Source: Azolla caroliniana (lineage: Eukaryota > Plantae > Polypodiophyta). Taken from it: 64,000 nt of DNA. The notes under the pieces are model-generated. The model was not told the DNA's origin. It did no database searches and saw only the letters and a program-made list of their open reading frames with translations. The translations under genes were made by a program, and so were the position numbers. Positions 16,600 through 56,324 of this stretch are shown one piece after another; within the stretch, counting starts at the first letter, position 1, and each line of letters starts with the position of its first letter. The stretch lies in the NCBI GenBank assembly GCA_043228905.1, contig JBHGNT010000020.1, forward strand, positions 11,904,001-11,968,000. The letters run 5' to 3'.

Positions 16600-18810
16600 A
16601 TGGAGCAAAAACTACAAGCTATGCAACAAAAAAGAAGGTATGACATAATTCCACCTTAGACTAGGTTGTATTTGAAAATAAGTGACGCCTTGCCATCGTT
16701 TCTTAAAGGCCACTTGATGTTGCCATAGAACATCATCTGAACCCTGCAGATCATCATATTGACCACGTAGTGTATGGACAAATAAAAGCTAGAATTCAAT
16801 AAGCATGGTGCGAAGACGTAGGTGAGCATTATTAAAAACAACATCACATCTCGCTTTCCATGTTATGCAAAGAGCCATTCATATAATAGTATGCCAAATA
16901 ACCAGATTTTCAACTCTAAACCGTCAAATAGAAGATGGAAATGAGGTGAGCTAAAGATGTCCATGGGAAAAGTGAAAGACATGAGAAGCAAGCCTACTTT
17001 CATACTTCATAACATCTCCATGAAGGACACCCCATAATTATATTGCGCCCCACGAGAAATAGAACAAGAATAATGTTGTCTCAGCAATAAAAATAGCTTA
17101 CTGCAAAATAATTTGCTTGATCCTGGGACATAACCAAAACACATGCAAAATAGATTCCATAGATGCACCACATTGCATTCCACAAGCATATTGCTGATTT
17201 TACCTCAACTAATAACAAACAGGAAGAGCATAATGCATCAACAACCAACGAAAACAAATCACTTTTTTCAGCAACTACATACTCCAAAACCATTTCCAAA
17301 ATTTGGTAAGTTGGAATGCATGCACATTATTTGCAGTCCAATGGCAACATGTCATTTATACTTTGATTGCAACAACAAATTTCTACCTAGCTTAACCGAG
17401 TATTGGAAAAACTCCAAATGTTTACCATTTCCACCAACACTCGGCTTTTTCCATTGATAATCAACCGTATCCCAGTCCAAATTGTAAAGAGGCTTTTTTT
17501 GAAAAACCCACAATTAGCAACACAACAAGCATTCTTGAAAGGGTGGATCTAACTACCATTTTTTTCCAGATCTTGCAACAACTCAAATAGCTAAAACATT
17601 GGCAAACATCCACACTTCTGATGCAGAAAATACATACCACAACCTACCATCATCATCCACATTAAAGTATATAGCATCACCTGTAGTGTTAGTTACAGCT
17701 CCGAAAATAACTTTTAAAGGAGAGAAATAACCAAACCCAAATCTGATTGTTAGAGGGGGACTATGAAGCCATAAATTATCCCAATGCCACTTGCATATCA
17801 TTGCACATAATAGCACCTCCTCGAATTGAAGGCATTGACAAAGATTGTAATGGTTGATTCATAACATAGCATCCCCATGCTAGAACATTACCTACAATTG
17901 ATGCATCCAAAGAAGCCCAATTCAGCCGAGGACGGCTACCAAGCAGAAAACCCCTTGTGTCAGAGGAGAAAAATTCTAGGTCAAAGGCTATCTCAGCAAG
18001 TCATCCGTTGTCAAAGGTATCTTCAGAACTAGAAACTTTTTAACAATTGACCAACTTGTGAGAATTCCATTGAAAAATCTATCTTCTGATAAGGTTGTTT
18101 TAAACAAATGACAATTCTAAATAAAGGCCCACCTTAATGAGGGTTGCCACATTCCACCTATTGTTGGACACATAGTAGACAACCTATGCATCATTAGCTG
18201 ACTCCAACAGACTCCAAACGCCTTGCATTGTCAACATAGGTCTACACACAAATTTAGAAACCAAAGCCTTACATTGCGATTATGGATCCACCAGCTCCAA
18301 CCCACCATTTTGTCACGGAGCAATCTGTCACGGATAGATCATAATCTCAAGAGACAAGAAAGAAGATAGACAAATGGATGAGTAGTATTAACGAAAAGAC
18401 TCCATAACTGGTGTTGTTCACCTTGAATTCCTTCAAGGTGAACTCCTCTATTTATACTACATGGCATGCATACTTGTTGTGCGCATGTGAATCTACAATA
18501 GAGCATGTAGGTATGCATGCATGTGCCAAGTGTAAATACTACAAGGGAGCAACTATGCACATGATGCTAGCAAAACAATAAGGACCAATTACATACATAA
18601 CTATGTACTAGATATATTGGTTAACCCATGATATTATATTATAACATGGTCGTGTCAAGATTTCGAATCTTGACACAATCAATATTGCCCAAGCTACTTT
18701 AGGCCTTTTATATTGACCTGTTTTTCCTCCCCAAATGTAATTACGAATGAGGCATTGCACCTGCAATATGCAATATTATTGCATATTCTATTTCAAAAGT
18801 GTGTCAATAC
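16600..18810 (-). mobile_element. Degraded 5'-truncated L1-type LINE (post-RT region of ORF2)
   Basis: Minus-strand translation gives LIRNYIWGG, KVAWAILIAP, GGLELVDP, GSRPRLNWASLD, DDDGRLWYV and WNYVIP. These are collinear with ORF2 of the LINE at 43.2-46.6 kb. Confidence 0.8.
18326..18675. mobile_element. Solo LTR (350 bp) inserted in the LINE
   Basis: Termini TGTCA...TGACA. Exact 5-bp TSD CAATC at 18321-18325 and 18676-18680. Removing it restores the LINE frame KVAWAILIAP-GGL. Confidence 0.85.
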
Positions 18811-21079: not shown

Positions 21080-21420
21080 ATTAGAAGTTTATAGATCAAC
21101 GAATGTGCCACCCATCGCTTAGAAGTGGGAAAGGGGGCTTACTATGCATTGGAGAACATATGTAATGATGGAGAAACTAGATACCTTTGGTAATGTTGGT
21201 GCATCTCTAAGGGGTTTAAGCATGGGACAATGACAACTCTAAATCCATTTCCAATGAGTTTGGAGATGTCCAAAAGCGTTTTCTCATGAAATTTCTTCAA
21301 AGATGTTGCACCAAATTAAAAAACCCTTCTTCTCACATGGGGAAACTACAATCGTCAATACAAGTTAGACCTTATCCCTTTTCCACCATCCACGCTAATT
21401 ATCTCACATTCTTCTTCATA
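21080..21420 (+). pseudogene. Old RTE/RTEX-type fragment
   Basis: AACGAATGTGCCACCCATCGCTTAGAAGTGGGAAAG...TACTATGCATTGGAGAACATATGTAAT is homologous to the NECATRRLEAGKRAYYAFENTCN region at ~26.25 kb and ~55.2 kb. Confidence 0.65.
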
Positions 21421-22682: not shown

Positions 22683-23409
22683 TTTTTTGTTTTTTTTTAA
22701 ACAAAAGTACACAATAGTTTCCATTACCAATCCAATAAGCATATACAAAGCATATAATGATACAATCTAGTGGAGGGTAAGATAAGAGAGAAAATGTATA
22801 TCCCCCACTATGTCATAATAGGAAACAACCATCGAGGGGATACATATTGCTAAACCATTTGGTCATTTCTCTCCACAAATACAAACAAATCATTCCACTT
22901 CCCTTTAAAAGGATTGTTGTTTCAGAAAAATGGTATCTTCATTACCAATGAAGGAGTCATATTGACCTTTTAAAATTGAAATAAGAATCAACCAAATTTC
23001 CTTCACACAATGAATAGGATTTTGCTTTATTTGCTAAAACACATTTTTGCATCGATCTATCCAAATATTCCATAGAACCACCGACGATATCATAGCCTAT
23101 ACTGTGGCATCCACACTCAACCAATTTGAGCTTGAATATGGTATGTCCTTAACTTGCCTTCCCCTAGTTTGAAGGGTAAATAGTATATTTTCCCTTTCAT
23201 AATTATGCTTATCCACATTTACTTCACACAATGAACATGATTTTGCTTTATTTGCTGAAACACATTTGTGCATTGATCTATCCAAATATTCCACAAAACC
23301 ACCGATGATATCGTAGCCCATATTGTGGCATCCACATTCAACCTATTTGAGCTTGAATATGGTATGTCCTTAACTTGCCTTCCCCTAGTTTGAAGGGTAA
23401 CTAATATTG
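22683..23409 (-). mobile_element. Short 5'-truncated L1-type LINE with poly(A), TSD and internal duplication
   Basis: TSD AAAAAGGTAATAAC(T) at 22669 and 23410. Poly(T) on the plus strand from 22683. Minus translation IWATISSVVLWNIWID and EIWLILISILKGQYD matches the C-terminus of the 43-46 kb LINE. Confidence 0.85.
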
Positions 23410-23582
23410 AAAAAGGTAATAACTAATTCCTACCATGTTTCTGGTTACATTTTCATTCTTTTTCCTTTGGGTTTTATGTTCTTCAAATTTTCATTTTTTG
23501 TCTTTTTCTCAAGTTAGGAATGTCACCCATTAGTAAGCCAAATTTTTATAAGCCTATGCACAATTTTACTAATTGTTGTAAG

Positions 23583-24740
23583 GGGTACAACTTATCATGT
23601 TGGACGATCTCCTAACGAAGTATACATCATATATGGTACAACCTATCATGCTGGACGATGTCCAAAGAAAGTATACATCACATTCAACAACTAGTATACA
23701 ATTACATTTGGTCTAGTAAGGAAGATCATGCAACTCATGCCAAGGTGGCATGATATGTTCTCACATCACCCAAATGGAGAGGAGGGATGGGTTTGATTGA
23801 TACCCTCTACTATCCAAAGCACCACTTGCCAAATTTGTTGTTCGAGGACTCCAACTAGGGGATGACTATTGGAAAATGCTATAGAGCTATGTTCCGAGGA
23901 TCTCAAACCAAGGTTATCACACGAATTAGAGGATCATAGATTTAGTGCATTCATGTGGAAGCATGGTGTGACATAAGACGAGGGTTAAAGTGCGGTCAAC
24001 CTAACTCCGAACTTGCATTGCTCAATCAACGCATCCTATGGAACCCATGAGTCTGGTAAACTAATTGGATCAAGTAAGGGGAAGCATTGCAGAAGGTCCA
24101 ACAAAGAGTATAGAGTGTTGGAAGCGGTTTATGTCAATTTCACGACAAGATCAAGCCAACATACTCCACGACATCAGGGGCAGATGGACTATGAGATCTG
24201 AAATTATGAATGCTCTATTGCTTGGGGAAGTTGCTAGTCCAAGGACGGCAATGGAGAAGTGGATAGGGAATGAGGAGGAAACACCAAATAGGATCCAAGG
24301 CCAAGAGACAATGAGGAACCAACAACAACGAACATGGAAATTCGAGTGTTCGTGTATACAGGTCATAAGTGGATTGTAGATCCCATCCAATCAAAGTCAC
24401 ATTGGAATTTGTCAACCCAATAACACTATGAACTCTCTAGAAACAACATTGTAGGGGGGATTTCTCTAATCAAATTGTGCACCAGGCGATGGTATTGCAG
24501 GAGATATGGAGTGAAGTTGTAGTCACGCTAAAGAGACAATACAATGGCATCAAGGTGGATTCGTTGTAACCAAAAGACAACGATTAGCCTTCATCCAACA
24601 ATGGTCATCCTCTCCCTTTCTTGAGTCAATGGGCCTCCACATAAGATGGAACTATCGAGTCCCTTCTGGGATTTCTATAATTCTCAATTGTAAAATTTTA
24701 TAAGTAATGGAAGGAGTTTTGTTTTCGGTAAGAAACAAAA
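23583..24740 (+). mobile_element. Degraded 5'-truncated L1-type LINE
   Basis: WYNLSCWTMSK..IQQLVYNYIWS..AKVA*..KWRGGMGLID near the start and IRWNYRVP near 24645. The first ~50 bp is tandemly duplicated (23583/23635). Confidence 0.7.
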
Positions 24741-24879
24741 TTTGTTGTAATGGGTGAATGCATGAAATTTTGATTTAATTTCACAGTCTTAATAATTGAA
24801 CTACAACCATTTGGACAATCTCTCACATTCTTACAATAATGTGGGTATCCTGACTCGCTCTCTCTTTATCATAAGTACC

Positions 24880-25069
24880 TTACCCTAGTGGTAAGTTGTT
24901 ACACGACAAACACTATGTCTTGGGCTTGAAACCTAATTATCTCACCTCTCTATTAGATACTTGATACATATATCACTTTTAAGTCACTAGATGCCACTGT
25001 GGAATGTAGGGGTTGAACCCATGACCTCCTGGTCTCCATTGCGCAACATTACCAACTGAGCTACATCCA
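24880..25069. other. Twin convergent tRNA-like (SINE-head-like) module, copy 1
   Basis: Plus strand: A-box-like TACCCTAGTGG at 24881 and B-box-like GGCTTGAAACC at 24923. Minus strand: A box TAGCTCAGTTGG at 25063-25052 and B box GGTTCAACCC at 25019-25010. Flanked by CT/CA repeats. Confidence 0.7.
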
Positions 25070-25099
25070 TCTCGGCGACTCTTTCTCTCTCACACACAC

Positions 25100-27311
25100 A
25101 CATGCATGTGCTAAATTTTGGGGAAATCTAAAGGGGAAACGTGTTGAGAGTTATGGTGACTTAACTCTTCACGACTTGTCTATGCATTGTAAGAATTTAT
25201 ATGAGTTATCACTTGCCAGAAAGATGATGTATTCTGGTTCCCTTTCACATATGCCTCCCTTCTTTACAATTGAAGATATATGCGTAGGACTTAAGAAATT
25301 GGCCTCTCGAAAGGCAAGCGATCTTCAATGTATAAAGGTTTAAATGCTCAAATGGACGGGAAAGGAAGCACATGTATGGATAAGCGATATGTTCAATGAT
25401 GCATTGCAACATGGTATGCCATACGATTGGACTACAAATTGGATCAAACCTTTACATAAAGGTGGAGATATAAATAATGTAAACAACTATCGAACAATCA
25501 TGGTTGGCTCATTAATGGCAAAACTATTTGGATGTATAATGGAATCAAAGATAAGTGTATGGGCTAAAAAAAATGGTAAGAGAGCTTATGGACAAGCTGG
25601 CTTTTGAAAACACCATAGCACCATTTATCACCTTATCACCCTTCGAGTATTAATGGACGAAAGTCGCCTTAGAGGTAAAGGTTTATATTGTTGCTTTGTA
25701 GACTTCAAGAAAGCTTTTGATATGGTACCTCGTGAGCATCTTTGGAGGCGAATGGAAGAACTTGAGGTGCCAAGTGAATATATGCTTGCAATTTCCCGAA
25801 TTTATGAGAAGGTTATATGTTGTGTGCACATGAGAGATAAATTTTCAGATTTTTTCAAAAGCACTATTGGTGTTAAGCAAGGATGCCCACTCTCACCAAC
25901 ACTATTTGGTCTATGCATTGATGAATTGGAAGAAATGGTTACCAAGTTTGCAAAGGAAGAATGTGTTGAAGAAGTTGCCATTGGGAATGTTGTGATTATG
26001 CTTTTGCTATATGCAGATGATGTAGTGCTTTTTGCAAATACTTTAGGAGATGCACAAAAGCTTATGAAGGCATTGGAAAAATTTTGCATGCATACTAAAT
26101 TAAGTGTCAATAGCTCTAAAACAAAGATTATGCTTGTGAAGAGCCAAAAAAGAGATAAACCATGCATTATGTACAACAATGAGCCACTTGAATGTGTGGA
26201 AAGCTTCAAATATCTTGGCCTTGAAGTTCCTTCAAATCATAGATGGAATGAATGTGCTACACGCCGCTTAGAGGCGGGCAAGCGAGCATACTATGCATTT
26301 GAGAACACATGCAATCTTGGAGATATTAAGTGTTGGGTCCTCACTTTGGAGATATTAAGTGTTGAGATGGATATCTTTTCGACACTTTGGTGACACCGGT
26401 TCTTCTCTATGGGGTGGAAGTATGGGGTGGTAGCATCCCTAAATCTATGTGGAAAGAGTTTAAAAATGTCCAAAAGCATTTTCTTACCAATTGTCTACAA
26501 GTTAAGAAACAAACGCCCTACACCCTCCTCCTCCTTGAGACAGGATCGCTTCCCATTGAGATCATGGCCATGGAAAGGTTTGTTGAATACATGCTTAAGG
26601 TTCAAAAAAGTCCCTCACATCGACTTCCTAGAATTGCGTGGGAAGCAAGCAAAAAGATCCAAAAGACGCATAAAAGCAAAATTTTGTGTTCCGGTTGGAT
26701 GCAAGATATAGAAAAATGGTTTGGTAGATGGGATGCGAGACACTTGCTTCATGATGCATCATTAGATTCCTCTGTAAATGAGGCATTTTTGCAACACCAA
26801 TGTATCATGACATGGGACAAATGTGGATGCTCAGACTTCACACATTATACTACACATGTTGCACCTAACTATAAAACCATATTCTTTGCGGAACGGGGAA
26901 ATCCTACACATTGATACATGTTAGAGCCCATACCGTTATCTTCCATTCAAACCATTGCTTCCATGCGACTTAGCTCACATGCATTGCGATGTGAGACAGG
27001 GCGTTGGGGCACAAGTGATGAGAGTGGTCGGCTATGCACACTTTGCCCTAAACAAGTTCGCGAGTCTGAGTATCACACTTTGATACAATGCTCTGCATTT
27101 GATCATATCCGACCATGCTTTCCACATCTCTTCGACCGAGCCCAATCCTTGCATGAATTCCTCTCACAACCACAATGTGCACTCTCGATTGCAACATTCA
27201 TTGGTAAAGTTCTTGAACATCGAGAGTCACTACTCACTTTCACACGTATCACGTGAAATGTAATATTTTTGGTTTCATAGGTCATATTTGACCTCCGAAG
27301 ACAATAATATA

Positions 27312-27347
<36 letters not shown>

Positions 27348-27407
27348 ATCTATCTCTAGGTCATATTTGACCTCCGAAAACGATAATATAATCTATCTAT
27401 CTATCTC
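25100..27407 (+). mobile_element. RTE/RTEX-type non-LTR retroelement, copy 1 (RT plus C-terminal Cys/His motif, no APE), pseudogenised
   Basis: NNYRTIMV, QAGF, FVDFKKAFDMV, GVKQGCPLSPTLF, LLYADD, FKYLG and RLSSHALRCETGRW-CTLC-HTLIQC. Several stops. (CTAT)n/(CTTT)n tail. Confidence 0.9.
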
Positions 27408-28194
27408 TTGGTGAAAACACAATAAATGTTTGTAAAAAACACTACTTACAATGGGTGTGAGAATGGAGTATGGTTACCCACTAACTACATACACTACATG
27501 GGTAGTGGAACATGTTGAATTGTGAAGAGGCAAGACGAACACTCCACTGAGGAAAGAATTCCACTTGCCCCAATAAAGAAAATTGTCACATTAGTACCTG
27601 GCCCATCGAATACAAAAGCGTTGCGCATGTTCCAATTATGATACAATCCCCAATATCTCAGAAATAGAAAAACGACCTCCATGTCTGGTTTTGGGTCAAC
27701 CTATGTAAATTGTGCAAACACCCATTGTCTAGGTGTCAAATAACACCATGATAAAACTTGCCAAATTTGAGAAATGTAACTTTAAACCTGACAAGCAATC
27801 AGACCTTGTATAAATCAATGAGTACTATATTCCATTTGAATAATGCAAAAGAAGCAATTACATGTTGCTAGTCCACGACACTTTACAGCTAATCCCAAAG
27901 GAAATCTACCAATCAAACCTCTCCAAATGAAGTCCTTTGCTACAAATGGCAATTAAGAATGCCAACTACGTTGTAAGATCTACCACAACCCATTATCAAA
28001 TTTGTGTATTTTCCATTCTTCTTCAGCCTTAGATGATAACCATCCAAGAGACTCAACAAAACAATGATACAAAAGGTTAGTAGTCACTTGTAACAATGAC
28101 ATTTGACACCGTCAACACCAATCACTCCATGGTTTTTCTCCTATTTGTAGAGATAAGGGACCTTGTATCAATGCAATATTTTGTAGTTGTTGAC

Positions 28195-32343: not shown

Positions 32344-35300
32344 TTGCCAAATAAACCCATAATTAGGCGGGATGCATAATAATTGCCGCACTTCAACAAA
32401 CTCCAAAATTCTTTGAGATGGAGCCACCTCTTTGACCCCCAAATGAAACAAACAATTAAATTGAGAGTGCAATCTCTCCTTTCCTGGCCAACATAATTAC
32501 CGAGAAGACACAAGTAACTCTTTTGCAAAGAATTACAATGCTCTCTACTAGATGATGGTTTCCATACACATAACAAGAGTGCTTCTTGCCATGAGGTAAC
32601 CAAGTGTTGAACATAGGAAGAGCCTAGAATCCTAAGTGAAATACATCCATTAAGTAATTGCCACCATGAAGCCTTAATCGTTGTCCTCCCATGTGTTAAA
32701 CCCTTGTTCTCAATGAAATATTGAACAATAGATATCCATGGTTGTGAGTTTGAACACATGTCTTGTAACAATGAAAATCTGAGATTCCCAACAAAATCTA
32801 CGAGCCATCATATGCATAGATAAGTTCAATATTCCAGCTCCCTCTAAGCGATTAGGGGTTGCTAGATGATTCCACACAACCCAAGTGATTCCCATCTTAT
32901 CCCTCCGAAAACATAGAAGAAAACCGAATTTGAAACCCTACAGACCGTAGAAAATCGAGAATGCTTCCACTTCCAAAATGATGGATACCTACAATAATTC
33001 CCATTTTATAGCACAAGGGGAGGCTTTTACATCATACTTAATGGCAACCATTTTCTGTTCGCGATTCTTCCTCGATTCTTTCTCACATCATATCTTATTA
33101 TTCCTCTCTTTTTGTGGCACATTAAAGTAACCATTAACTACTATGCCTAGTACTTATAAATTCTCTCCCTATATTTATGTTTCTTTGTACATTAGTCCAT
33201 GTTCATCTACATACTTGCACACCCTCGTTCACACGCATCCGGCGAACTTTCTCCTTGGTGGAGGAATTCCCCACGACATCCACCCCCACCAAACCGCACA
33301 TCCTCCGGTATGTGCCGAGTAGTGAAGTTGAGGGGATTCCAGTCCACTTTTTACTCGTCCTCTCTGGTTCTATCATCGACCGGGTTCTCGTCTAATTCCT
33401 CGTTCCTGTCAGCATTGTCTTCCACCACGCCCGAATCCAGCTCCAACTCGTACCGCTTCTTGAAGGCGTTTATTCATTTTCCCACAACCGATATTGTGAT
33501 CCTTATTCCGTCGAGCTCTACTAGATGGTATGTCGCATTGTCGTTGGCGTTTGTCACCGCATATGGCCCAAACCACCGCCTCACAAACTTTCGGATCAAC
33601 TGGTGCTAGTTGTCGAGGCTGTTGTCATACACCAACACCCAGTCGCCTTCTTCGATGTTTCCCGGCCTCAATCGGTGGGTCCGGTCGAACCATCCTTTGC
33701 TCTTCATCCTCGCCTTCACTTGTTCCACATCCTCCGACCTTCATTCAAGCTGTCAGATCCGCGCTGTCAGCAGCTCCACCCAACTCATTTCGTCTGACTA
33801 GTCGATTCGCATCCACGACGCTATCATTCTCTCCACTGTCATAATCGGCTTTTATGTGAACATGAGTTCGGTTGGCATGTATCCAGTTACCGAATTGTGC
33901 GTAGTTCAGTCTGCCAACAAAGCATAAGGTAGAAGCCTCAGCTAGTTTCTAACCCACCCGTCGCATCCTCTCATGATCGCCTTCACGATCGGCCCATGTC
34001 CGTGTTCGACCTTCCCGTTAGCCTCTGGATTGTATGCCTTCATGAGGGACAACTTAACCCCTTGTCAATCGAACAACTCCTCTGCTTCTTACGCATCCAA
34101 CTCCCCTCGGTCGGCCACGATCTTCTCGACACACCCATACCGGTAGATTACATCCTCGATGAGGAACCGGCAAACAGTCGCAGTCATCTTGTTCAGCAAG
34201 GCTCGGCCTTCCACCTAGTTCCTCATGTCCTCTCTTGCTAGGAACAAGTACAACATCTGCCCCACCCCCATTGGCATCATCACTAAGTCAACCATCCACT
34301 TGAAGTGAATGGCCGAAAGATAGGTCAGGTTCTCGTCTTAGTGCCAGATTATGGAATGCACTTGGCAACTCTCACATGTTGCCACAAAGTGGTGCACGTA
34401 CTTGTACATTCCCGGCCACAGTACTTCTCCTTCAGCTTCTCGAACGTGGCCCATGTCACCTGATGTCCGGACCAGGGACTTTCGTGAAACTCCGACATCA
34501 TCACTGATTGTTCCTCCTTCGTAACCACCCCGAATGGTGTGCCGTTTCGCTTCTTCGGAAGCCGCCATATCTTACCATCCTTCAAGAAGAACTTGTACGC
34601 CTTCTTTCGGATATGACTCGCTTCCTCCTTGGTCTCTAACGCGTCATTTGTCATCAAGCTCAGGAACTGCCCAATCTGAAGCCACTCCTCATCGTAGTCA
34701 TTCTCGTTGAACTTGAGCAGGGTCGGAGTGCTTCGCCCATTTTCCAACAATCGAGCCGATTCAAAGAAGTCCACGCCAACTTCTTCGTTTTCCAATACCA
34801 TGTCATCTTTGTTGTTGTATCGTGCTCTCAATACCATGTCGGCCATGGCATTGTCCTTTCCGGAGATGTGTCGTATCTCAGGATTCAGGGACTTGATTTA
34901 CGTGATCCACCTGAGCATCGCCAAGTCCAGGGTTGCGCATTCAGAAACCATACCGAGGATCTGTAGGCAGTCCATCTCGATGATTACTTCCGTTGTCGTG
35001 TTATTACGCAAGTGCGTGTGGAAACGAGGCGGGACCGCGGGGGTCTCGAACCAAAGAGCAAGTGAGGGAGGAGGAAAAGAGAGAACCGGCTACGCAGGAC
35101 CGGGATACACAGGGACACGGCCCTTCAGCACGGAGAACGCGAACGAACACCGACACAGACAGATGCGAATGACTAAATATATATATTAAGAAAATTATGG
35201 CTAACACGGCTACAACCCTCGATGGGGCACAGGTTGGTTACAACCGAGCAGGCCGGCGAACAGATGCCGATGCCTGTTCGCTTCGACGCACAAAGGGGTA

Positions 35301-35706
35301 GCCGGTCGGAGGTGCTGCCGGAAGCACTCGGGCGTTCCTCGAAACAGCGCAAGCCCCCCCCCCGGAACCCTGCACAGAAAGCTCTGGAGCTCAAGAAGGA
35401 AGGAAGCAGAGAGAGAGAGAAGCGTCCAGAAACGGTCCGACAGCACTTCGTTCTCTCCCCCCCCGCGAGATGCCTGCAATAGCTCTTTCCTGCTCCTTAT
35501 ATAGGCCGACGAGCAGGCCGTCCTGTCAGCTTTATTCCCTGTCCCTTTGGACAGGGATTCGCTTCGTCCTTCACGCATCCGCGTAGTTACGCCGCCGACT
35601 CGTACAGTTCCTTCGCTCGCGCGCGCGATCGAAAAGACTGTTCGCGCGGTCTTTGTCTTCACTTGTGTTAGGGCCCGTTCCCGCCGATTATCCTCCTAAT
35701 TCGCTT

Positions 35707-38700
35707 CTATGTACAACTCGGAGCGTGCGCGCGTGAAGAACCGGTTCCCACGCCTTGGTGCGCCGATTCCGCCCATGGACGGTTTTCTTCACGACATCCG
35801 CCCCCACCTAACCGTGCATCCTCCGGTATGCACCAAGAGAGTTGGGACGGAGAAAACCGGCCCGTCTTCATTTCTTCGCCCGTCGGTTCTTCCTCGTTTT
35901 CGGATCTTTCGTCACTGCTGACTAGGAGAGCTGGGTCTGGCTCGTCGTCGTGTCGCTTCTTGAACGCTTTGATCCGCTTCCCTGCAACCGGTATCGCCAT
36001 TCTCGTGCCGTCTAGTTCCGCCAGGTGATATGTCCCGTTGTCATTGGCGCTCCGCACCACGTAAGGCCCGAACCACCTTCGTGCGAACTTCCGTGTAGCT
36101 CGGTGCTGGTTGTCGAGGCTGCTGTCGTAGACGAGCACCCAGTCACCTTCGTCGATTTTCTTCGGTCGGAGCCGGTGCGTTCGGTCGAACCGGGCTTTGT
36201 TCTTCGTCCTCGCCACCCGGAGCTTCTCCGCAGCCAGTGCCACGTCCTCCGGTCTCCGCTCGAGTTGTCGTATACGTGCGGCCAACAACTCCTCCCGGCT
36301 CATCTCGTCCCTCCAGTCGACCGTTGCCCACGAGGAGATCGTCCGTTCAATTGGCATGATCGGCTTCTGGCCGAACATGAGCTCCGTCGGCATGTACCCG
36401 GTTACCGAACTGTGCGTGGTCCGGTCTGCCCACAAAGCATAAGGTAGCAGCCGCGGCCAGTTTCCGACTTGGCCTCCGCATGCTCGAACCAGCGCCTTGA
36501 CGATCGGTCCGTGTCCGCGCTCCACCTTTCCATTCGCCTCCGGATTGTACGCAGTGGTGAGCGAGAGCTTGACTCCCAGCCGGTCGAACAGCTCCGCGGC
36601 TTCTTCGGCGTCCAACTCCCCTCGGTCAGCCACGATCTTCCCGACGCACCCGTACCGGCATATTACGTCCTCGATTAGGAACCGACATACGGCCGCGGTC
36701 GTTTTGTTCGGAAGGGCCCGGCCTTCCACCTGGTTCGTCAGATCCTCCCGCGCTAGGACCAGGTACCGCATCTGTCCTACCCCCATTGGCATCGTCACCA
36801 GATCTACCATCCATTTGAAGTGGATGGTCGGAGGGTACGTAGGGTGAAGCTCGTCCCGATGTCGGACTATGGAGTGCTTCTGACAGCTCTCGCAAGTCGT
36901 CACGAACCGATGCACGTCCTGGTACTGCCCCGGCCACCAATACTTCCCCTTCAGTTTCTCAAACGTAGCCCATGTTCCACGGTGTCCAGCCCAAGGGCTG
37001 TCGTGGTAGGCCGTCAGCAGCTCCTCCTGTTCTTCCTTCATCGCCACCACCCGGAGCGGAGCGCCGTCCCTCTTCTTTGGGTGTTTCCATAGATAGCCAT
37101 CCCGGAGGAAGAACCGGTACGCTTTCTTCCGGATCCGGTTGGCCTCGTCCTTCGTCCATGACGCATCGGGCGTCATTGTCTTCAAAAACCCACCGATCTG
37201 CAGCCACTCCCCGTCGTACCTGCTCGCGTCGAAGTCGTTAAGCGCCGAAGTGCTTGTTCCGTCGGTTGTTACATACGCAGTCTCGAAGAAGTCCACGCCG
37301 ACCTCTTCGTCCTCCGAAACCATGCCGCCCTCATCATCGAACCTCGCCCTTGAAAGCATGTCGGCCATGGCGTTGTCTTTCCCGGAAATGTGTCGTATTT
37401 CCGGGTCCAGGGATTTGATGTACGCTATCCACCTGAGCATTGCCAGGTCCGGCGTCGCGCATCCGGAAACCATGCCGAGAATCGGCATGCAATCCGTCTC
37501 TATGATTACCTCTGTCCCGATCAGATAGTCCTTGTCAGCCTTCACCGCCGAAACGATACCCCAGAGTTCGCGTTTAACCTGGGCGTATCCTCGCTGCCGT
37601 TCGCTGAGGACCTTCGCGCCGAATCGGATCGGAAACCGATCGCCGTCCTCGTCTTCTTGGTTGACGACCCACCCGATTCCGGTCGGACTCGTGTCAACCG
37701 TTATGTACACTGGGGTGCCCTTCCTGTAGACGGCCTTTCGGAGCGCCGGTGCTGCCGAAAGAGCCTCCTTCAGCTTCCGGACCGACTCCGTGTGCTTGTC
37801 TAGCCATTCGAATCTTCGCCCTTTCTTCAATAATCCGTACAGCGGCTCCGCGACGTGCGCGTAATGCGGGATCCATATGTGGTAGAAGGCGCATGCTCCC
37901 AAGAATCTTCGTACTTCCGTGACCGAGCTGCAATCAGGCTTCATCGCGGAGATGGCTTCTATCTTTGCCGGAGACGGTTTCCGGCCATATGGTCCACATA
38001 AATGTCCGACCACCATGATTTCCCACTGCCCGAACGCTGACTTCTCCCCCGAGAAGGTGAGCCTCGCATCCTCTAGCCTTTGCAGCACCTTCTCGCAGTC
38101 GTCGATGTGCGTCACCACGAATCGCCGGCATCCGTCCGGCCCGATCGTCTCGTCCTTCTCTTCTACCGGGCATCCCTTGATCGGGATGTCGTCTAGAAAC
38201 GGCATGGTGATGTCCGAGATGCAGTCCCTCAGCACCTTGTTCATTGCATTCACCATGTGGGCCACCGAGTTGGTCCCTCCTTGCGGCAGCGTACACATCC
38301 GCACTAGGCCGAGGGGAGTTCGCATCGTCGTAATGTCTCTGCTCTCCACGGCTAGCTGGAACTGGTCGTACCCTGAGTATAGATCACCGACCGAGTAAAT
38401 CGACCTTCCGGCGAAGGCCTCCGCGAACTCGTCTATGGTCGGTCCGATCCCTGCGTTCCGAATGGTCACCCTATTGACCGGTTGCAAGTCCTGAATGAAG
38501 CGCAATGATCCGTTTTTCTTTGGTACGGTAAACCATCGGTTTGAATACGGGGCGCTCGATGGCTCGAGAATGCCCATATCAACTTTCTGCTTCAACAGCT
38601 CCATCAACTTCGGGATGTGAGCTCTCGGAACCGGAATTGGCTTGAGATTCCACGGTACATGCGGTACCGTGAATATCACCATCGGCTCTACGGTCGTCGG

Positions 38701-39352
38701 GTCTACGCACCCGATTTCCTCCGGTGAGAATGCGAAGGCTTTCCCGTGCCTTCCGAGCATCCTCCGAAATCGGTCTTCCTCCGCCGGTAGTAGGAACCCG
38801 CCCCCACCGATCTTCAGCTCGCGGAGCGTCTCGTTGGTGAAGGTGTGTCCTATGCAGGCTGGATCTCGTAAGCTGGGGTCCGATGCAACCCCTTTGATTC
38901 GGGATTCGCTGCCCTCCGGTAAGGGCGCCGCAACTGGCCTCACCTTCCGGTCCACAGTCTTGTACTTGGTGCTAACTCGGGCCGTCCGTTCCGACTCGAG
39001 CCATCGACCGAAGTCCGCGATGACTTCGTACATTTCTTCGGAACATACCGGTATCGTCCGGTCTTCGTTAAGGTCTTCTTCGACTACCTTCCCCAGCATT
39101 CCCAAGGTGTCGTCGAAGGAGACTGCCTCCACGGCTCCGTTGATTTCTTCGTCAGGGCCGAGAACTCCGCACGCTCGAAGTCTCCCCTCCGTCTTTGTTT
39201 TCTCTCGGCCGGCGATGCCGACCATCGCACATGCTCCGCTGCCGGAGAAGCAAAATTTCCTACCTATTGTACACGGTTTTATCGTACAGATGTGGGGTCT
39301 TCCCGGAGCATCCGGACTGTCGCGGCCCCACGCCTTGGCAGTCCTTTCTAAA
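35707..39352 (-). CDS. pol: Pol (RT, RNase H, integrase), reached by probable -1 frameshift
   Basis: 1172-aa ORF from 39225, with the frame open upstream to the slippery site. DLYSGYDQ, LPQG, FLDD, VDTSPTGIG, H-H-C-C IN zinc finger, VADRG, PEANGKVER and WFGPY motif. No chromodomain. Confidence 0.92.
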
Positions 39353-39357
39353 AATCC
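39313..39357 (-). promoter_or_regulatory. Putative -1 programmed ribosomal frameshift signal
   Basis: G GAT TTT heptamer immediately before the gag TAG, a 6-nt spacer, then a GGACTG...CAGTCC stem-loop. Pol is in the -1 frame. Confidence 0.8.
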
Positions 39358-41474
39358 TCTCGGTTTTCGGAACCGAGGGAGTCGCGGTTACGTTCGTGGT
39401 TCGGCCGTACCGTCAGAAACTGGACCGAATGTCGCCCGTCTTGGCTTTTGACCCTCGCGTAGGCCGAACCATTGTCCAGCACCTTGGTCTCCATTCGCGC
39501 CGCCGTGATGTACGGCTCTCCCAGTATGACCGGATGTGAAGACGTCTCCTGCACGAAGAAGTGCTGGTCAATCTCGACGTCGCCGATCTTGACTCGCACA
39601 TTCGGACAGGCCCCGTGCAGTTCCTCGGTGGCGCGCGTTGCTGCCCTTATTTTCCACCCGTGCTTGGTGTTGATCGGCCATTTGCCCTTCTTATAGAAGT
39701 CCATGGACATCAGATTGATCTCCGATCCGTGGTCCACCAAAGCTATCACCGGTTCCTGGACATCGCCAATCTTTACCGGGGTTTCCGTGGTCGCTCGGGC
39801 CCAGTGTGGTCTCGAATAGTGGCTTTCCGCCCACTCGTCTCCCAGCGCCATGTCGTCTAGGTGCGTCGTCCGCACTTCCACCGGTCTTTCCGGTTCTATC
39901 TCCGTCGACAGCCTCTTCCGTTTCACTAAGTCCACGATGGAGTCATGGAACTCCTTCTTGGCGATTCCCAGCACCTCTCGTAACGACAGCTCCACCTTGC
40001 TGTCGAGGATCCGTTCCTCCAGGACCTTTCGCAAGTCCGTGGTTCTTTCTATCTCCGTCCCCAGACGGTACCCGCCCTTCTGGGGTTTATCTTGCGTACC
40101 GGCCCCGCCGGCTTCGTCCCGTCGTGGCCCGGACCGGGTCTCGTATCGTTGTGAGGGCCCGGTCGTCCCGGGTTTCCCCACCCGCTTCTCTTCTACCAGA
40201 GCCTCGTAGTTCCGGCAAGCGGCTTCCACGAAGCCCGTCTTTTCCTCGACCGGGTCGCTCCACCCGGTCATCTCCCGTACCCGTTTCTCCGCACGGTCCG
40301 ATTCCTCCCTTTTAAGCCCTGCACCGGCAAGGCCTTCTAGCATCGTCGGCCAGAATCCGGCTTTGCTTTCCTTTCGGGCCTCGCCGCCCCCGACTCGAAT
40401 GCCGGCCGACGCCGAGTAGTGGACGGTTTCCGCGTGTCGGGTCGCCGCCTCTTCCATCAACCTTTTCATACCACCTCGCCCGTCGTTTCGGCTCAGGGCC
40501 CTTCGGGTGTCGCTGGCATGCACCCGTCCTTCCCACAGGTACACCACCCTATTCCTCAGCGCCTCCGCGAAGTCGCCGCAGTCCTTCCGAATGTGGCCGA
40601 CTTCATCGCACCACATGCACCTGTTTCCTGCCGCCGGCCGTCGGTCACGAGCCGGTTCGCCTCCTTCCCTTCGGGTCTGCGCGATTTGGAGGTCCTTTAT
40701 CGCCTTCGTCAATTCCTCCAGCGCCGCTCCTCCGGTTGAGCCTCTGGCTACGCCGGTCGAAGCCGAACCAGTTTCCAACCACTCTCGGGTCTCTTCCTTT
40801 CGCACCTGTGGCGCTGGTTCGAGCTTCCTTGCTGCGACCGAGCCCGACCCGGTTGCCCCGTTATCCGCCCATTCTCGCCGTTTGTCGAAACGGCCACAGA
40901 CCTTCCTGACAGCCGCCCAGTCGGTAGTGAGCCCGTCTTCGGTTTCCAGCAAGAGGCCCACTTGCTCCCGATCCCGCTCGTCGACCGACTTGACAAACAG
41001 CAAGACCCGGCTCGTGTCCAGGATGGTTCGGTCGAGCGCCGAAAGGCGCGCAAAGTTTTCCTCGAACTCCCGGAGGAGTGCCGACGCGTTTCTTCCCTTC
41101 CCCGGGGATTCCACCCATTCCATGAACCTTCGCTTCGAAAGCCGGAGCGCGTCGTCCAGCCCGTATTTCTCTAGGAGCCGACCTTCGAACTCTTCCCAGG
41201 TACGGCTCTCCGCCCGCACCTCGAGCACCTCCGCATGGATGCTCGGCATCGCCACTCGGGGGAACCCGGCAAGACGCCTTTCTTCCGGAATGTCCCGCAT
41301 CAGCATTTCTGCACCGTAGGACGCCAGATACTTCGTGGCATCCCTCCCATCGAACCGGCCGATCGTGCCGACGACCGCCTCAATAGCTCTGTCGAGGGCA
41401 CCGGTGCCCTCGCGCGCGTTTACAATCCGATCCACGGCCGAAGCCATGGCCTCTGCAAGATCCGACCCCCTCAT
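39348..41474 (-). CDS. gag: Gag-protease polyprotein of the intact Gypsy
   Basis: Open frame with first ATG after the PBS at 41474 (MRGSDLAE). Zinc knuckle CMWCDEVGHIRKDC. Aspartic protease-like ALVDHGSEIN...VILGEP. Confidence 0.9.
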   Translation of the reverse strand: MRGSDLAEAMASAVDRIVNAREGTGALDRAIEAVVGTIGRFDGRDATKYLASYGAEMLMRDIPEERRLAGFPRVAMPSIHAEVLEVRAESRTWEEFEGRLLEKYGLDDALRLSKRRFMEWVESPGKGRNASALLREFEENFARLSALDRTILDTSRVLLFVKSVDERDREQVGLLLETEDGLTTDWAAVRKVCGRFDKRREWADNGATGSGSVAARKLEPAPQVRKEETREWLETGSASTGVARGSTGGAALEELTKAIKDLQIAQTRREGGEPARDRRPAAGNRCMWCDEVGHIRKDCGDFAEALRNRVVYLWEGRVHASDTRRALSRNDGRGGMKRLMEEAATRHAETVHYSASAGIRVGGGEARKESKAGFWPTMLEGLAGAGLKREESDRAEKRVREMTGWSDPVEEKTGFVEAACRNYEALVEEKRVGKPGTTGPSQRYETRSGPRRDEAGGAGTQDKPQKGGYRLGTEIERTTDLRKVLEERILDSKVELSLREVLGIAKKEFHDSIVDLVKRKRLSTEIEPERPVEVRTTHLDDMALGDEWAESHYSRPHWARATTETPVKIGDVQEPVIALVDHGSEINLMSMDFYKKGKWPINTKHGWKIRAATRATEELHGACPNVRVKIGDVEIDQHFFVQETSSHPVILGEPYITAARMETKVLDNGSAYARVKSQDGRHSVQFLTVRPNHERNRDSLGSENREDF

Positions 41475-41496
41475 CTTCTGCTCTTCTGCCGCTTCT

Positions 41497-41514
41497 TTCA
41501 CGTCGGGTTCACCA
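41497..41514 (-). promoter_or_regulatory. Primer-binding site complementary to tRNA-Trp
   Basis: TGGTGAACCCGACGTGAA (18 nt), 3 nt from the 5' LTR. Complementary to the plant tRNA-Trp(CCA) 3' end UUCACGUCGGGUUCACCA, as recalled from memory. Confidence 0.8.
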
Positions 41515-43246
41515 AGATGTCGTGTTATTACGCAAGTGCGTGTGGAAACGAGGCGGGACCGCGGGGGTCTCGAACCAAAGAGCAAGTGAGGGAGGAGGAA
41601 AAGAGAGAACCGGCTACGCAGGACCGGGATACACAGGGACACGGCCCTTCAGCACGGAGAACGCGAACGAACACCGACACAGACAGATGCGAATGACTAA
41701 ATATATATATTAAGAAAATTATGGCTAACACGGCTACAACCCTCGATGGGGCACAGGTTGGTTACAACCGAGCAGGCCGGCGAACAGATGCCGATGCCTG
41801 TTCGCTTCGACGCACAAAGGGGTAGCCGGTCGGAGGTGCTGCCGGAAGCACTCGGGCGTTCCTCGAAACAGCGCAAGCCCCCCCCCCCCGGAACCCTGCA
41901 CAGAAAGCTCTGGAGCTCAAGAAGGAAGGAAGCAGAGAGAGAGAGAAGCGTCCAGAAACGGTCCGACAGCACTTCGTTCTCTCCCCCCCCGCGAGATGCC
42001 TGCAATAGCTCTTTCCTGCTCCTTATATAGGCCGACGAGCAGGCCGTCCTGTCAGCTTTATTCCCTGTCCCTTTGGACAGGGATTCGCTTCGTCCTTCAC
42101 GCATCCGCGTAGTTACGCCGCCGACTCGTACAGTTCCTTCGCTCGCGCGCGCGATCGAAAAGACTGTTCGCGCGGTCTTTGTCTTCACTTGTGTTAGGGC
42201 CCGTTCCCGCCGATTATCCTCCTAATTCGCTTCTATGTACAACTCGGAGCGTGCGCGCGTGAAGAACCGGTTCCCACGCCTTGGTGCGCCGATTCCGCCC
42301 ATGGACGGTTTTCTTCACGACACCGTCCCGATCAAATCATCTTTCTCAGCCTTTACCGCCGAAATGATACCCCACAGTTCGCACTTAACTTGGGCGTACC
42401 CTCTTTGTCACTCACTTAAGACCTTTGCACCAAATCGGATGGTGAACCGTGTTCCGGCTTCGTCCTCCTGGTTGATCACCCATCCAATTCCGGTCTTACT
42501 CGTGTCGACCATCACGTAAATCGAAGTGTCCTTCTTGTACACCGCTTTCCGGAGAGCCGGTGCCGTCGTCAACATTCCCTTCAATCTTCGAACCGCCTCT
42601 GATTGCTCTTCTCTCCACTTGAACTTCCGCACCTTCTTCAGCAAGCCATAGAGTGGCTCTGCAATGAGCGCGTAGTGCAAGATCCAGATGTGGTAGAAGG
42701 CACATGCCCCTAAGAATCATCGAACCTCGGTCTTCCTTCATGGCCGAAATGGCTTCCACCTTTGTTAGAGACGGTTTCCATCCATATGGACTACATAGGT
42801 GTCCGACCACCACGATCTCCGACTACCCAGAAGCCAATTTCTCTCTGAGAACGTTAGTCATGCTCCTTCAAGTCTGTCCAATATTTTTTCGCAGTCGACG
42901 ATGTGGTCAGAAATGAACTTCTGACACCCGTCCTCTCCAACCGATTTGTCCTTCACATCCTCCAGACACCCCTTTATTGGAATGTCGTCCAAAAACGACA
43001 TGGTGATGTCCAGGATGCAATCCCTCAGCACTTTGTTCATTGCATTCACCATGTGCACCACCGAATTAGTACCCCCTTGGGGTATGGTACACATCTGAAC
43101 TAAGCCAAGAGGGGTCTGCATCGTCGTGATGTCCTTGCTTTCGACGGCTAGTTGGAACTAGTCATACCCAGAGTATAAGTCGCCGACTAAGTAGATAGAC
43201 CTTCTCGCGAAGGCTTCCACGAACTACTCAATTGTCGGTCTGACCC

Positions 43247-53811: not shown

Positions 53812-53995
53812 TTACCCTAGTGGTAAGTTGTTAACACTACAAGCACTACGTCTTGGGTTTGAAACCCAATTTTCTCACTCTTTATTATATACTTGATACA
53901 TATCTCTTAATTCACTAGATGCCACTATGAAATGTAGGGGTTGAACCCATGGCCACTTGGTCTCCCTTGGGCAACCTTACCAACTGAGCTACATC
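53812..53995. other. Twin convergent tRNA-like module, copy 2
   Basis: Plus strand TACCCTAGTGG at 53813 and GGGTTTGAAACCC at 53855. Minus strand TAGCTCAGTTGG at 53991-53980 and GGTTCAACCC at ~53947-53938. (CT)n on both sides. Homologous to 24880-25069. Confidence 0.7.
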
Positions 53996-54028
53996 TCTCT
54001 CTCTCTCTCTCTCTCTCGCTCTCTCTCT

Positions 54029-56245
54029 AAACAATTTATCCAAACGCAAGAGAAAGCGCATGCATGTGCTAAATTTTGGGGAAATCTAAAGGGAAAACGT
54101 GTTGAGAGTTATGGTGACTTAACTCTTCACGACTTGTCTATGCATTGTAAGAATTTATATGAGTTATCTCTTGCCGGAAAGATGATGTGTTATGATTCTC
54201 TTTCACATATGCCTCCCTTCTTTACAATTGAAGATATATGCATAGGACTTAAGAAATTGGCCTCTCAAAAGGCAAGCGATCTTCAATGTATAAAGGTTGA
54301 AATGCTCAAATGGACGGGAAAGGAAGCACATATACGGATAAGCGATATGTTTAATGATGCATTGCAACATGGTATGTCGTACGATTGGACTACAAATTGG
54401 ATCAAACCTTTACATAAAGGTGGAGATATAAATAATGTAAACAACTATCGAACCATCATGGTTGGCTCATTAATGGCAAAACTATTTGGATGTATAATGG
54501 AATCAAAGATAAGTGTATGGGCTGAAAAAAGTGGTAAGAGAGCTTATGGACAAGCTGGCTTTCGGAAATACCATAGCACCATTGATCACCTTATCACCCT
54601 TCTAGTATTAATGGACGAAAGTCGCCTTAGAGGTAAAGGTTTATATTGTTGCTTTGTAGACTTCAAGAAAGCTTTTGATATGGTACCTCGTGAGCATCTT
54701 TGTAGGCGAATGGAAGAACTTGAGGTGCCAAGTGAATATATGCTTGCAATTTCCCGAATTTATGAGAAGGTTATATGTTGTGTGCGCATGAGAGATAAAC
54801 TTTTAGATTTTTTCAAAAGTACTATTGGTGTTAAGCAAGGATGCCCACTCTCACCAACACTATTTGGTTTATGCATTGATGAATTGGAAGAAATGGTTAC
54901 CAAGTTTGCAAAGGAAGAATGTGTTGAAGAAGTTGCCATTGGGAATGTTGTGATTATGCTTTTGCTATATGCAGATGATGTAGTGCTTTTTGCAAATACT
55001 TTAGGAGATGCACAAAAGCTTATGAAGGCATTGGAAAAATTTTGCATGCATACTAAATTAAGTGTCAATAGCTCTAAAACAAAGATTATGCTTGTGAAGA
55101 GCCAAAAAAGAGATAAACCATGCATTATGTACAACAATGAGCCACTTGAATGTGTGGAAAGCTTTAAATATCTTGGCCTTGAAGCTCCTTCAAATCATAG
55201 ATGGAATGAATGTGCTACACGCCGCTTAGAGGCAGGCAAGCGAGCATACTATGCATTTGAGAACACATGCAATCTTGGAGATATTAAGTGTTGGATCCTC
55301 AAGAAATATCTTTTCGACACTTTGGTGACACCGGTTCTTCTCTATGGGGCGGAAGTATGAGGCGGTAGCATCCCTAAATCTATGTGGAAAGAGTTTGAAA
55401 ATGTCCAAAAGCATTTTCTTACCAAGTTTCTACAAGTTAAGAAACAAACGCCCTACACCCTCCTCCTCCTTGAGACGGGATCGCTTCCCATTGAGATCAT
55501 GGCCATGGAAAGGGTTGTTGAATACATGCTTAAGGTTCAAAAAAGTCCCTCACATCGACTTCCTAGAATTGCGTGGGAAGCAAGCAAAAAGATCCAAAAG
55601 ACGAATAAAAGCAAAATTTTGTGTTCCGGTTGGATGCCAGATATAGAAAAATGGTTTGGTAGATGGGATGCGAGACACTTGCTTCATGATGCATCATTAG
55701 ATTCCTCTGTAAATGAGACATTTTTGCAACACCAATGTATCATGACATGGGACAAATGTGGAGGCTCAGGCTTCACACATTATACTACACATGTTGCACC
55801 TAACTACAAAACCATATTCTTTGCGGAACGGGGAAATCGTACACATCCATACATGTTAGAGCCCATACCGTTATCTTCCATTCGAACCATTGCTTCCATG
55901 CGACTTAGCTCACATGCATTGCGATGTGAAACAAGGCGTTGGGGTACAAGTGATGAGAGTGGTCGGCTATGCACACTTTGCCCTAAACAAGTTCGCGAGT
56001 CTGAGTATCACACTTTGATACAATGCTCTGCCTTTGATCATATTGGACCATGCTTTCAACATCTCTTCGATCGAGCCCAATCTTTGCATGAATTCCTCTC
56101 ACAACCACAATGTGCACTCTCAATTGCAACATTCATTGGTAAAAAGTTCTTGAACATCGAGAGTCACTACTCACTTTCACACGTATCACGTGAAATGTAA
56201 TATTTTTGGTCTCATAAGTCATATTTGACCTCCGAAGACGATAAT

Positions 56246-56324
<79 letters not shown>
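54029..56324 (+). mobile_element. RTE/RTEX-type element, copy 2 (near-intact RT-only ORF)
   Basis: ORFs 53957-55360 and 55382-56200 are in the same frame, split by one TGG>TGA, with a late frameshift near 56140. Long (CT)n tail at 56251-56324. Highly similar to copy 1. Confidence 0.92.
56251..56324 (+). repeat. (CT)n microsatellite, tail of RTE/RTEX copy 2
   Basis: Perfect run of roughly 36 CT units directly after the element's 3' UTR. Confidence 0.95.

What the first reader, a model, noticed from the sequence alone, without database searches (positions are those of the whole stretch)
24857..27407. Composite unit seen twice: twin convergent tRNA-like heads + CT microsatellite + endonuclease-less RTE/RTEX RT
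Seen: the same architecture occurs at 24.86-27.41 kb and 53.76-56.32 kb. Each has a ~190-bp module with one plus-strand and one minus-strand A/B-box pair facing each other, CT-type repeats on both sides, then an RT ORF and a microsatellite tail. The two ORFs start within ~30 bp of the same position, just upstream of the RT domain, with no APE. Known: random 5' truncation of LINEs should not give the same breakpoint and the same upstream neighbour twice. Inference: this is either a distinct mobile unit (a tRNA-headed, RT-only retroelement) or an RT element that targets microsatellites beside this Pol III-like module. By eye the module is more diverged (~85%) than the RT body (~95%+), which leans toward targeting or module exchange. 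T-runs in the ORF argue against full Pol III read-through.
Basis: partly seen in the sequence, partly recalled or inferred. Interest (0 to 1): 0.8.

Follow-up and report, generated by a model that had tools for sequence, protein, structure and literature searches.

The report
SINE and LINE share CT microsatellites
A short tRNA-like repeat and a 5'-cut copy of a longer retrotransposon sit side by side twice in this plant DNA, likely because each inserts on its own at the same CT repeats, so this is not a new composite jumping gene, although the short repeat's two facing tRNA-like heads are unusual.

Summary
The two units are real (93% alike, unrelated flanks), but they are not one mobile unit. 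The ~210-bp module is a common interspersed repeat. In 62 related loci with usable right flank it is followed by this LINE only 5 times, and those LINE 5' ends are scattered (138-2067 nt into the window's RT). In public runs the LINE family continues upstream of the window's breakpoints in frame, with no depth step. Its closest relatives carry an APE endonuclease. The RT bodies are 97% alike and the modules 87-90%; the RT copies share 0 of 13 rare variants. Both elements sit at (CT)n: 39 of 61 module ends versus 10 of 1885 background windows. Best reading: an older minus-strand SINE and a younger RTE/RTEX-like LINE landed independently in the same microsatellites; the 27-nt closeness of the breakpoints is probably chance plus microhomology. 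What is left of interest is a SINE with two convergent tRNA-like heads, always opposite to the LINE in polarity. Four look-ups found no earlier scan note of it.

The parts
24864..25076 (-). SINE-like module, copy 1 (~210 bp; tRNA-like head at the right end read on minus, A-rich tail at the left end)
   Evidence: nhmmer hit to a family profile, model positions 4-213; tail side inferred
24868..24950 (+). second, weaker tRNA-like segment (A/B-box-like, followed at once by a T-rich stretch); antisense within the SINE transcript; limits approximate
   Evidence: score 61 vs shuffled 44.5 against tRNAs from fetched loci (family consensus)
24995..25076 (-). tRNA-like Pol III head with clear A and B boxes; left limit approximate
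   Evidence: 80 vs 49; Rfam tRNA 13-15 bits, below cut-off
24852..24865 (+). left copy of a TSD-like 14-mer around module 1 (12 of 14 match to 25077-25090)
   Evidence: score 9, not significant against swapped flanks
25077..25100 (+). right TSD-like copy plus (CT)n(CA)n spacer; its CACA overlaps the LINE's first bases (microhomology)
   Evidence: sequence; family majority letter at 54058
25099..27311 (+). 5'-truncated RTE/RTEX-like LINE, copy 1: RT, C-terminal Cys/His region, 3' UTR; dead (stops at 25341, 25605, 26912; 23-nt net insertion near 26343)
27312..27408 (+). (ATCT)n/(TTCT)n tail with a 50-bp repeat of the LINE's 3' end (27278-27327 / 27357-27406)
27410..27932 (.). third, unrelated microsatellite-associated element with ~200-bp imperfect inverted ends (MULE/SaTar-like), abutting the LINE tail; right limit is the end of the match
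   Evidence: 74% to the ~790-bp element in L074; its end also follows (CT)n in L033, L060, L088
53796..53995 (-). SINE-like module, copy 2 (lacks the last ~9 nt of the family's right end, as do several other copies that run straight into (TC)n)
53994..54028 (+). (TC)17 spacer
54030..56249 (+). 5'-truncated RTE/RTEX-like LINE, copy 2 (one stop at 55358; 2-nt insertion near 56142)
56250..56324 (+). (TC)37 tail

Best explanation
Each unit is a dead, 5'-truncated copy of an APE-type LINE (RTE/RTEX-like) lying beside a separate ~210-bp tRNA-like repeat, and the two likely inserted independently, at different times, into the same (CT)n microsatellite. Shown: the module is dispersed and mostly stands without the LINE; LINE copies beside it have many different 5' ends; the LINE family runs on upstream; both elements are tied to (CT)n with fixed polarity. 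Inferred: the module is a SINE transcribed by Pol III from its minus-strand head through the antisense second head to an A-rich tail, and it inserts near the left edge of a (CT)n tract, duplicating the tract's first 10-20 bases. Inferred: the LINE, whose RNA ends in (CU)n/(AUCU)n, primes on the (AG)n strand inside the tract and is 5'-truncated at short microhomologies. A tract hit by both then reads module-(CT)n-LINE-(CT)n whichever came first, and the LINE's own tail makes a new tract edge, which gives the LINE-then-module order also seen.
For: (1) Of 103 loci from a module motif search, 25 were dropped by eye as bacterial tRNAs or chance hits and 8 as repeats of the same insertion, leaving 70. 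Of the 61 with 100 nt or more of right flank, 4 have this LINE directly behind the module; L084, with a 90-nt flank, is a fifth (5 of 62). All are on the same strand, starting 138, 1116, 1400, 1613 and 2067 nt into the window's RT, each right after (CT)n. (2) The reverse order, LINE 3' end then module, is seen in L050 and L080 and by eye in L003 and L027. (3) Laid contigs: the top loose end in all 4 runs lies before 54030 (20, 17, 20 and 4 contigs; agreement 0.77-0.82). Read by eye in the ORF frame it gives KKRRIWEVT, matching KKRRAWEVK in P0001. Summed depth at 54041-54061 (181k in X1) lies within the range of the bins behind it (117-389k), so there is no step at copy 1's breakpoint. (4) Closest relatives are APE+RT ORFs of 1059-1126 aa, 57-74% identical, in one clade with support 97. 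(5) Rare variants (90% or more of depth has another letter): RT 0 of 13 shared between the copies, module 1 of 6; three minor alleles at 21-48% are shared, i.e. one subfamily. Each window module is closer to L073 (88.6%, 93.0%) than to the other (86.5%). (6) (CT)4 within 40 nt right of the module in 39 of 61 loci versus 10 of 1885 background windows; (GA)4 in 0 of 66. LINE adjacency 5 of 62 against a rough 0.4% background, p about 6e-6. (7) T4+/(TTA)2/(TTTA)2 at 21 of 37 intact left ends versus T4+ at 2 of 39 right ends; in TSD-bearing full copies (L015, L085, L067, L064) the extra bases lie on the left; no T4 on the minus strand of the consensus.
Against: Two long LINE copies 29 kb apart, both behind a module, in the same orientation and with breakpoints 27 nt apart remain a coincidence that I could not price: no whole genome was held, so the share of LINE 5' ends that abut a module is unknown. 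Both window modules carry a G at 24963/53895 that 0 of 17 other copies and 4% of X1 depth carry. The related loci were found by a right-end motif, come from low-coverage metagenome contigs and may be from a related species. Only 5 of 47 clusters have a TSD beating swapped flanks at p<0.05, and the window's own TSD-like pair is not among them. 36 module hits are left-truncated, more than a pure minus-strand SINE would suggest. One single-copy contig in X2 and X3 aligns from 54020 and could be a third copy cut at the same place; the output does not tell. 872 loose-end rows were not shown.
Confidence: 0.8

Rival explanations
1. An amplified non-autonomous composite: one master locus (module + truncated RT) is transcribed as one RNA and copied in trans by the full LINE.
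For: Same order, orientation and near-same breakpoint twice; one shared rare module variant; same LINE subfamily. tRNA heads joined to RTE-derived bodies are a known route to new SINEs (PMC5786205, passages).
Against: Module 10-13% diverged versus RT 3%; 0 of 13 rare RT variants shared; different spacers and breakpoints; 0 of 62 related loci show this junction; no depth step; 12 T4+ runs plus a T4 behind the plus B box block Pol III read-through; no unique TSD around either whole unit by eye.
Confidence: 0.07
2. Chimera made at insertion: the RT jumps from LINE RNA onto SINE RNA (or the second nick primes on SINE RNA), so module and truncated LINE arrive together each time.
For: Would explain different module ages, scattered breakpoints and fixed polarity; module-then-LINE is enriched about 20-fold over a rough background.
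Against: A microsatellite lies between the two parts in all 7 cases; module 1 has its own TSD-like pair (not significant); the LINE-then-module order also occurs; the modules look older than the LINEs.
Confidence: 0.07
3. Local DNA-level copy or gene conversion between the two loci 29 kb apart.
For: Proximity; same orientation; one shared rare module base.
Against: Flanks unrelated; homology stops at the microsatellites; uneven divergence; no shared rare RT variants.
Confidence: 0.06

Closest known systems
Microsatellite-targeting APE-type LINEs: Kibi (TC), Koshi (TTC), Waldo, Mino (PMC3812793, passages read)
   Same: APE-type LINE found in a dinucleotide microsatellite; Kibi uses the same TC motif.
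   Different: Those are animal elements of other clades (clade names recalled: Tx1, R1). This one is a plant RTE/RTEX-like family; I found no paper on TC targeting by RTEX.
SaTar modular TE arrays in guayule and rice (PMC5907723, abstract and one passage read)
   Same: Unrelated elements line up without nesting at a microsatellite; locus 1 holds three (SINE, LINE, long-TIR element).
   Different: SaTars are non-autonomous MULE DNA transposons; here two of the three partners are retroelements with opposite fixed polarity.
RTE-clade LINEs and Au-like SINEs with microsatellite tails (PMC6007223, abstract and Discussion read)
   Same: Microsatellite tail proposed to choose or prime the cleavage site; SINE and LINE share insertion habits.
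   Different: Au SINEs share the LINE's 3' end and polarity. This module shares at most 7 nt (ACGATAA) with the LINE's 3' end and lies in the opposite orientation to (CT)n.
tRNA-headed SINEs with RTE-derived bodies, e.g. Bov-tA, WALLSI2 (PMC5786205, passages read); RTEX-N1_Ec32 (PMC12477816, passages read)
   Different: Those carry short UTR pieces at fixed junctions and are amplified as units; here the junction is a microsatellite, variable, and not amplified.
Dimeric tRNA SINEs such as Twin of Culex (recalled, not read)
   Same: Two tRNA-like regions in one short element.
   Different: As recalled these are head-to-tail; here the two face each other. Searches listed no paper on a convergent pair or on fern SINEs of this kind.

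Membership tests
APE-type non-LTR retrotransposon (5'-truncated copy) | RT domain of non-LTR type | tested here: met
   RVT_1 E 9e-32; 74% to P0001
APE-type non-LTR retrotransposon (5'-truncated copy) | APE domain upstream in full-length members | tested here: met
   P0001-P0004 carry Exo_endo_phos; the family in the laid runs continues upstream in frame for at least 30 nt; the APE itself was not seen in this organism
APE-type non-LTR retrotransposon (5'-truncated copy) | intact 3' end with simple-repeat tail, variable 5' ends | tested here: met
RTEX (RTE-X) clade specifically | RT groups with labelled RTEX references | not testable with these tools
   No labelled reference set; the tree (quick method, 60 of 120 hits) places it with unnamed APE+RT ORFs and an Adiantum protein (support 100), far from the window's L1. 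The defining paper was not held. The RTE/RTEX label is recalled resemblance.
RTEX (RTE-X) clade specifically | ORF1 / 5' region of the full element | not tested
   5' part absent from the window and not retrieved
tRNA-derived SINE (SINE2) | tRNA-related head with A and B boxes | tested here: met
   (80 vs 49); below Rfam cut-off as expected for a decayed head
tRNA-derived SINE (SINE2) | short, dispersed, many copies, non-coding | tested here: met
   70 independent loci; mean pairwise identity 79% among 22 near-full copies
tRNA-derived SINE (SINE2) | variable A-rich or simple-repeat 3' tail | tested here: met
   21 of 37 left ends versus 2 of 39 right ends
tRNA-derived SINE (SINE2) | target-site duplications | tested here: inconclusive
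   score 8 or more in 20 of 47 versus 27% in swapped pairs; 5 individually significant
tRNA-derived SINE (SINE2) | 3' end shared with a partner LINE | tested here: inconclusive
   only a 7-nt match by eye; partner not identified
tRNA-derived SINE (SINE2) | Pol III transcript | not testable with these tools
   only contigs were available
   0 of 62 related loci; breakpoints and spacers differ
   89.9% vs 97.0%, p 2.7e-5

The most novel reading that the evidence does not exclude
The module is a two-way SINE: both tRNA-like heads work, so it is copied from either strand. The minus RNA with its A-rich tail would prime on the (CT)n strand and the plus RNA with a (CU)n tail on the (AG)n strand, both possibly at staggered nicks made by this one LINE's endonuclease, so that the RNA tail picks the priming strand. 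Not excluded because 36 hits are left-truncated with an intact right end (two, L096 and L033, with TSD-like pairs), several copies repeat their right-terminal 20-45 nt as the LINE repeats its 3' end (L023, L025, L059, L070, L074), and some copies lack the T4 behind the plus B box. The right-end search motif biases all of this.
Probability: 0.13. Interest if true: 0.65.

Novelty: new variant of a known kind. Interest (0 to 1): 0.3.

Why it matters
As it stands it is modest: it shows how unrelated elements pile up at rare (CT)n tracts in a large fern-like genome and can mimic a composite element, and it adds a likely (TC)n-targeting plant LINE and a SINE with two convergent tRNA-like heads that my searches did not find described. 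If the SINE is copied from both strands, or by the same endonuclease using the opposite nick, it would offer a direct test of whether the RNA tail chooses the priming strand, as proposed for RTE elements in PMC6007223.

Tried and rejected
No whole genome was held, so the genome-wide co-occurrence table could not be made. Rfam and ARAGORN gave no tRNA above threshold. No RNA holder was listed; X15, guessed as RNA, was called probably DNA by the tool; nothing is said about expression. Summed depth over the module's right half was about ten times that over its left half, but copy 1's left half is diverged and the tool warns that depth is not copy number, so I did not use it for polarity. Loose ends at copy 1's junction were dropped by the tool as repeat. 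Folding the module consensus gave no unusual stability (z -1.1 and 0.0), so the two heads are not predicted to pair into one long hairpin. The synonymous/non-synonymous count was misregistered and is discarded. The careful tree did not finish; the quick tree is used. Segmental duplication was rejected on unrelated flanks. A MITE reading of the module was rejected: one variable A-rich end, one precise end, no real terminal inverted repeat beyond the A/B-box likeness. Repbase and Dfam could not be searched, so the SINE and LINE may already be catalogued there; supplements of the papers were not opened. Earlier scan notes: blank by sequence and by words.

Full report
Observation. The window is repeat-rich plant DNA, probably fern: the named relatives of the RT are from Adiantum, Taxus, Riccia and Klebsormidium, and one Adiantum protein is 73% identical over part of the query. 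The two units align from 24855-27357 to 53787-56294 at 93%, and the DNA outside is unrelated (57-58% in forced alignments). The module is 89.9% alike and the RT body 97.0% (p 2.7e-5). Both ORFs are broken (stops at 25341, 25605, 26912 and a frameshift in copy 1; a stop at 55358 in copy 2).

The RT is an ordinary truncated LINE. A search for longer relatives gave 456 proteins; the best are 1059-1126 aa, 57-74% identical, and the four best carry an APE-type endonuclease before the RT. The window's ORFs begin at aa 342 and 351 of P0001, in the linker. To see whether the organism's own family goes on upstream, I laid contigs of four public runs on 54020-54620. The best-supported loose end in every run lies just before 54030 (20, 17, 20 and 4 contigs); read by eye in frame it is KKRRIWEVT, matching KKRRAWEVK of P0001. 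Summed depth over 54041-54061 lies within the range of the bins downstream, so there is no step at copy 1's breakpoint (about 54057 in copy-2 coordinates). The tool warns that depth is not copy number and hid 872 loose-end rows, so this shows that upstream-extending copies are the top class, not their exact share. Both breakpoints sit at short microhomologies with the spacer (CACA in copy 1, CT in copy 2). The RTE/RTEX label is resemblance: the tree (quick method, 60 of 120 hits) has no labelled references.

The module is an element of its own. A 19-nt module motif found 103 loci in metagenome contigs. I dropped 25 as bacterial tRNAs or chance hits and 8 as the same insertion seen twice, leaving 70. 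They hold a ~210-bp repeat, 79% mean pairwise identity among 22 near-full copies, often in tandem arrays spaced by (CT)n. Of 61 loci with 100 nt or more of right flank, 4 are followed directly by this LINE, and L084 (90-nt flank) is a fifth; their 5' ends are 138, 1116, 1400, 1613 and 2067 nt into the window's RT, each after (CT)n and on the same strand. Two more loci (L056, L068) are followed by more distant relatives cut inside the APE. The opposite order, LINE tail then module, occurs in L050 and L080 and by eye in L003 and L027. None of 62 has the window's junction. These loci are anchored on the module's right end, are low-coverage contigs and may come from a related species.

Independent origin of the two window units. 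At sites where 90% or more of run X1's depth has another letter, the RT copies share 0 of 13 (9 in copy 1, 4 in copy 2, within the first ~550 nt) and the modules 1 of 6; three commoner alleles are shared, so the LINEs belong to one subfamily. Each module is closer to L073 than to the other. Modules 7-11% from a near-consensus copy beside LINEs only 3% from each other fit older SINE insertions joined later by younger LINEs. The one shared rare base (G at 24963/53895; 0 of 17 other copies) is the main point against this.

Why they meet. (CT)4 lies within 40 nt right of the module in 39 of 61 loci, against 10 of 1885 background windows, and (GA)4 in 0 of 66. In the window the long (CT) tracts on the plus strand are exactly those at these units. 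A LINE that needs (CT)n will therefore often land beside a module; adjacency is 5 of 62 against a rough 0.4%. At locus 1 a third element follows the LINE tail: 27410-27932 matches a ~790-bp element with ~200-bp imperfect inverted ends in L074, whose end also follows (CT)n in three other loci. This is like the modular arrays that SaTar MULEs build at microsatellites (PMC5907723, abstract), and TC-targeting LINEs are known in fish (Kibi; PMC3812793, passages).

How the module most likely works. The minus-strand head is clearly tRNA-like (80 vs 49), the plus-strand one weaker (61 vs 44.5), each only in its own orientation. The minus strand of the consensus has no T4, while the plus strand has one right behind its B box. 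The left end carries a variable T/(TTA)/(TTTA) run (21 of 37) and the right end is precise (2 of 39 with T4). Where a TSD is visible in full copies the extra bases lie on the left, and the TSD tends to be the first 10-20 bases of the tract (only 5 of 47 individually significant). I infer a minus-strand Pol III SINE with an A-rich tail that primes on the (CT)n strand, while the LINE with its (CT)n/(ATCT)n tail primes on the (AG)n strand. The partner LINE is not identified: the SINE's 3' end and this LINE's 3' end share only ACGATAA, a lead and no more. 36 hits are left-truncated and several repeat their right-terminal 20-45 nt, which keeps a two-way reading open, but the search motif favours such copies and most lack (CT)n on their left, as later damage would.

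The remaining coincidence. Two breakpoints within 27 nt has a chance of roughly 2-4% for one pair if ends are spread over 1.5-3.3 kb (my estimate, no call). The scan had notes on 264 windows of this genome, so such a pair is not surprising, but without the assembly I could not measure it.

Literature. Searches for RTEX with microsatellite targets, for fern SINEs and for convergent or tail-to-tail tRNA SINEs listed nothing that describes this module or pairing; one search listed RTE-X in Marchantia and microsatellite-associated MITEs in pineapple (listings only). PMC5753468 (passages) only confirms RTEX as a Repbase clade. Repbase and Dfam were not searchable, so absence from print is not established.

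Verdict. Observation confirmed; composite mobile unit not supported (0.07); independent targeting of (CT)n by a SINE and a LINE best supported (0.8). Interest 0.3, carried by the convergent two-head SINE and the fixed opposite polarity.

Noticed in passing
window 27410-27932; L074 oriented 371-1165; L033, L060, L079, L088: A ~790-bp non-coding element with ~200-bp imperfect (71%) inverted ends, repeatedly next to (CT)n; MULE/SaTar-like.
   Followed up: partly
window 34994-42329 (-): Young Gypsy element, LTRs 99.5% alike, two long ORFs; the bases before the 3' LTR show a small hairpin and no clean polypurine tract, as other notes on this genome report for some Gypsy lineages.
   Followed up: no
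window 43430-46641 (+); remnants 16636-18324, 22820-23881, 53013-53631: L1-type LINE (RVT_1 + zf-RVT) and older relatives; one remnant lies just left of module 2 on the minus strand.
   Followed up: no
window 21091-21300 (+) and 1011-1274 (-): Older, more diverged fragments of the same LINE group, with no module hit beside them.
   Followed up: partly
L012 and L085, right of the module: Another recurrent sequence that follows (CT)n or a cut module; on the minus strand it ends much like the SINE's tail, so it could be the 3' end of a partner element.
   Followed up: no
family alignment: L073, L080, L083: A module subfamily has a G inside the T4 behind the plus-strand B box, removing that terminator-like run.
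   Followed up: no
window 47212-47892: Tandem array of a 144-bp unit, about 4 copies, 79% matches.
   Followed up: no
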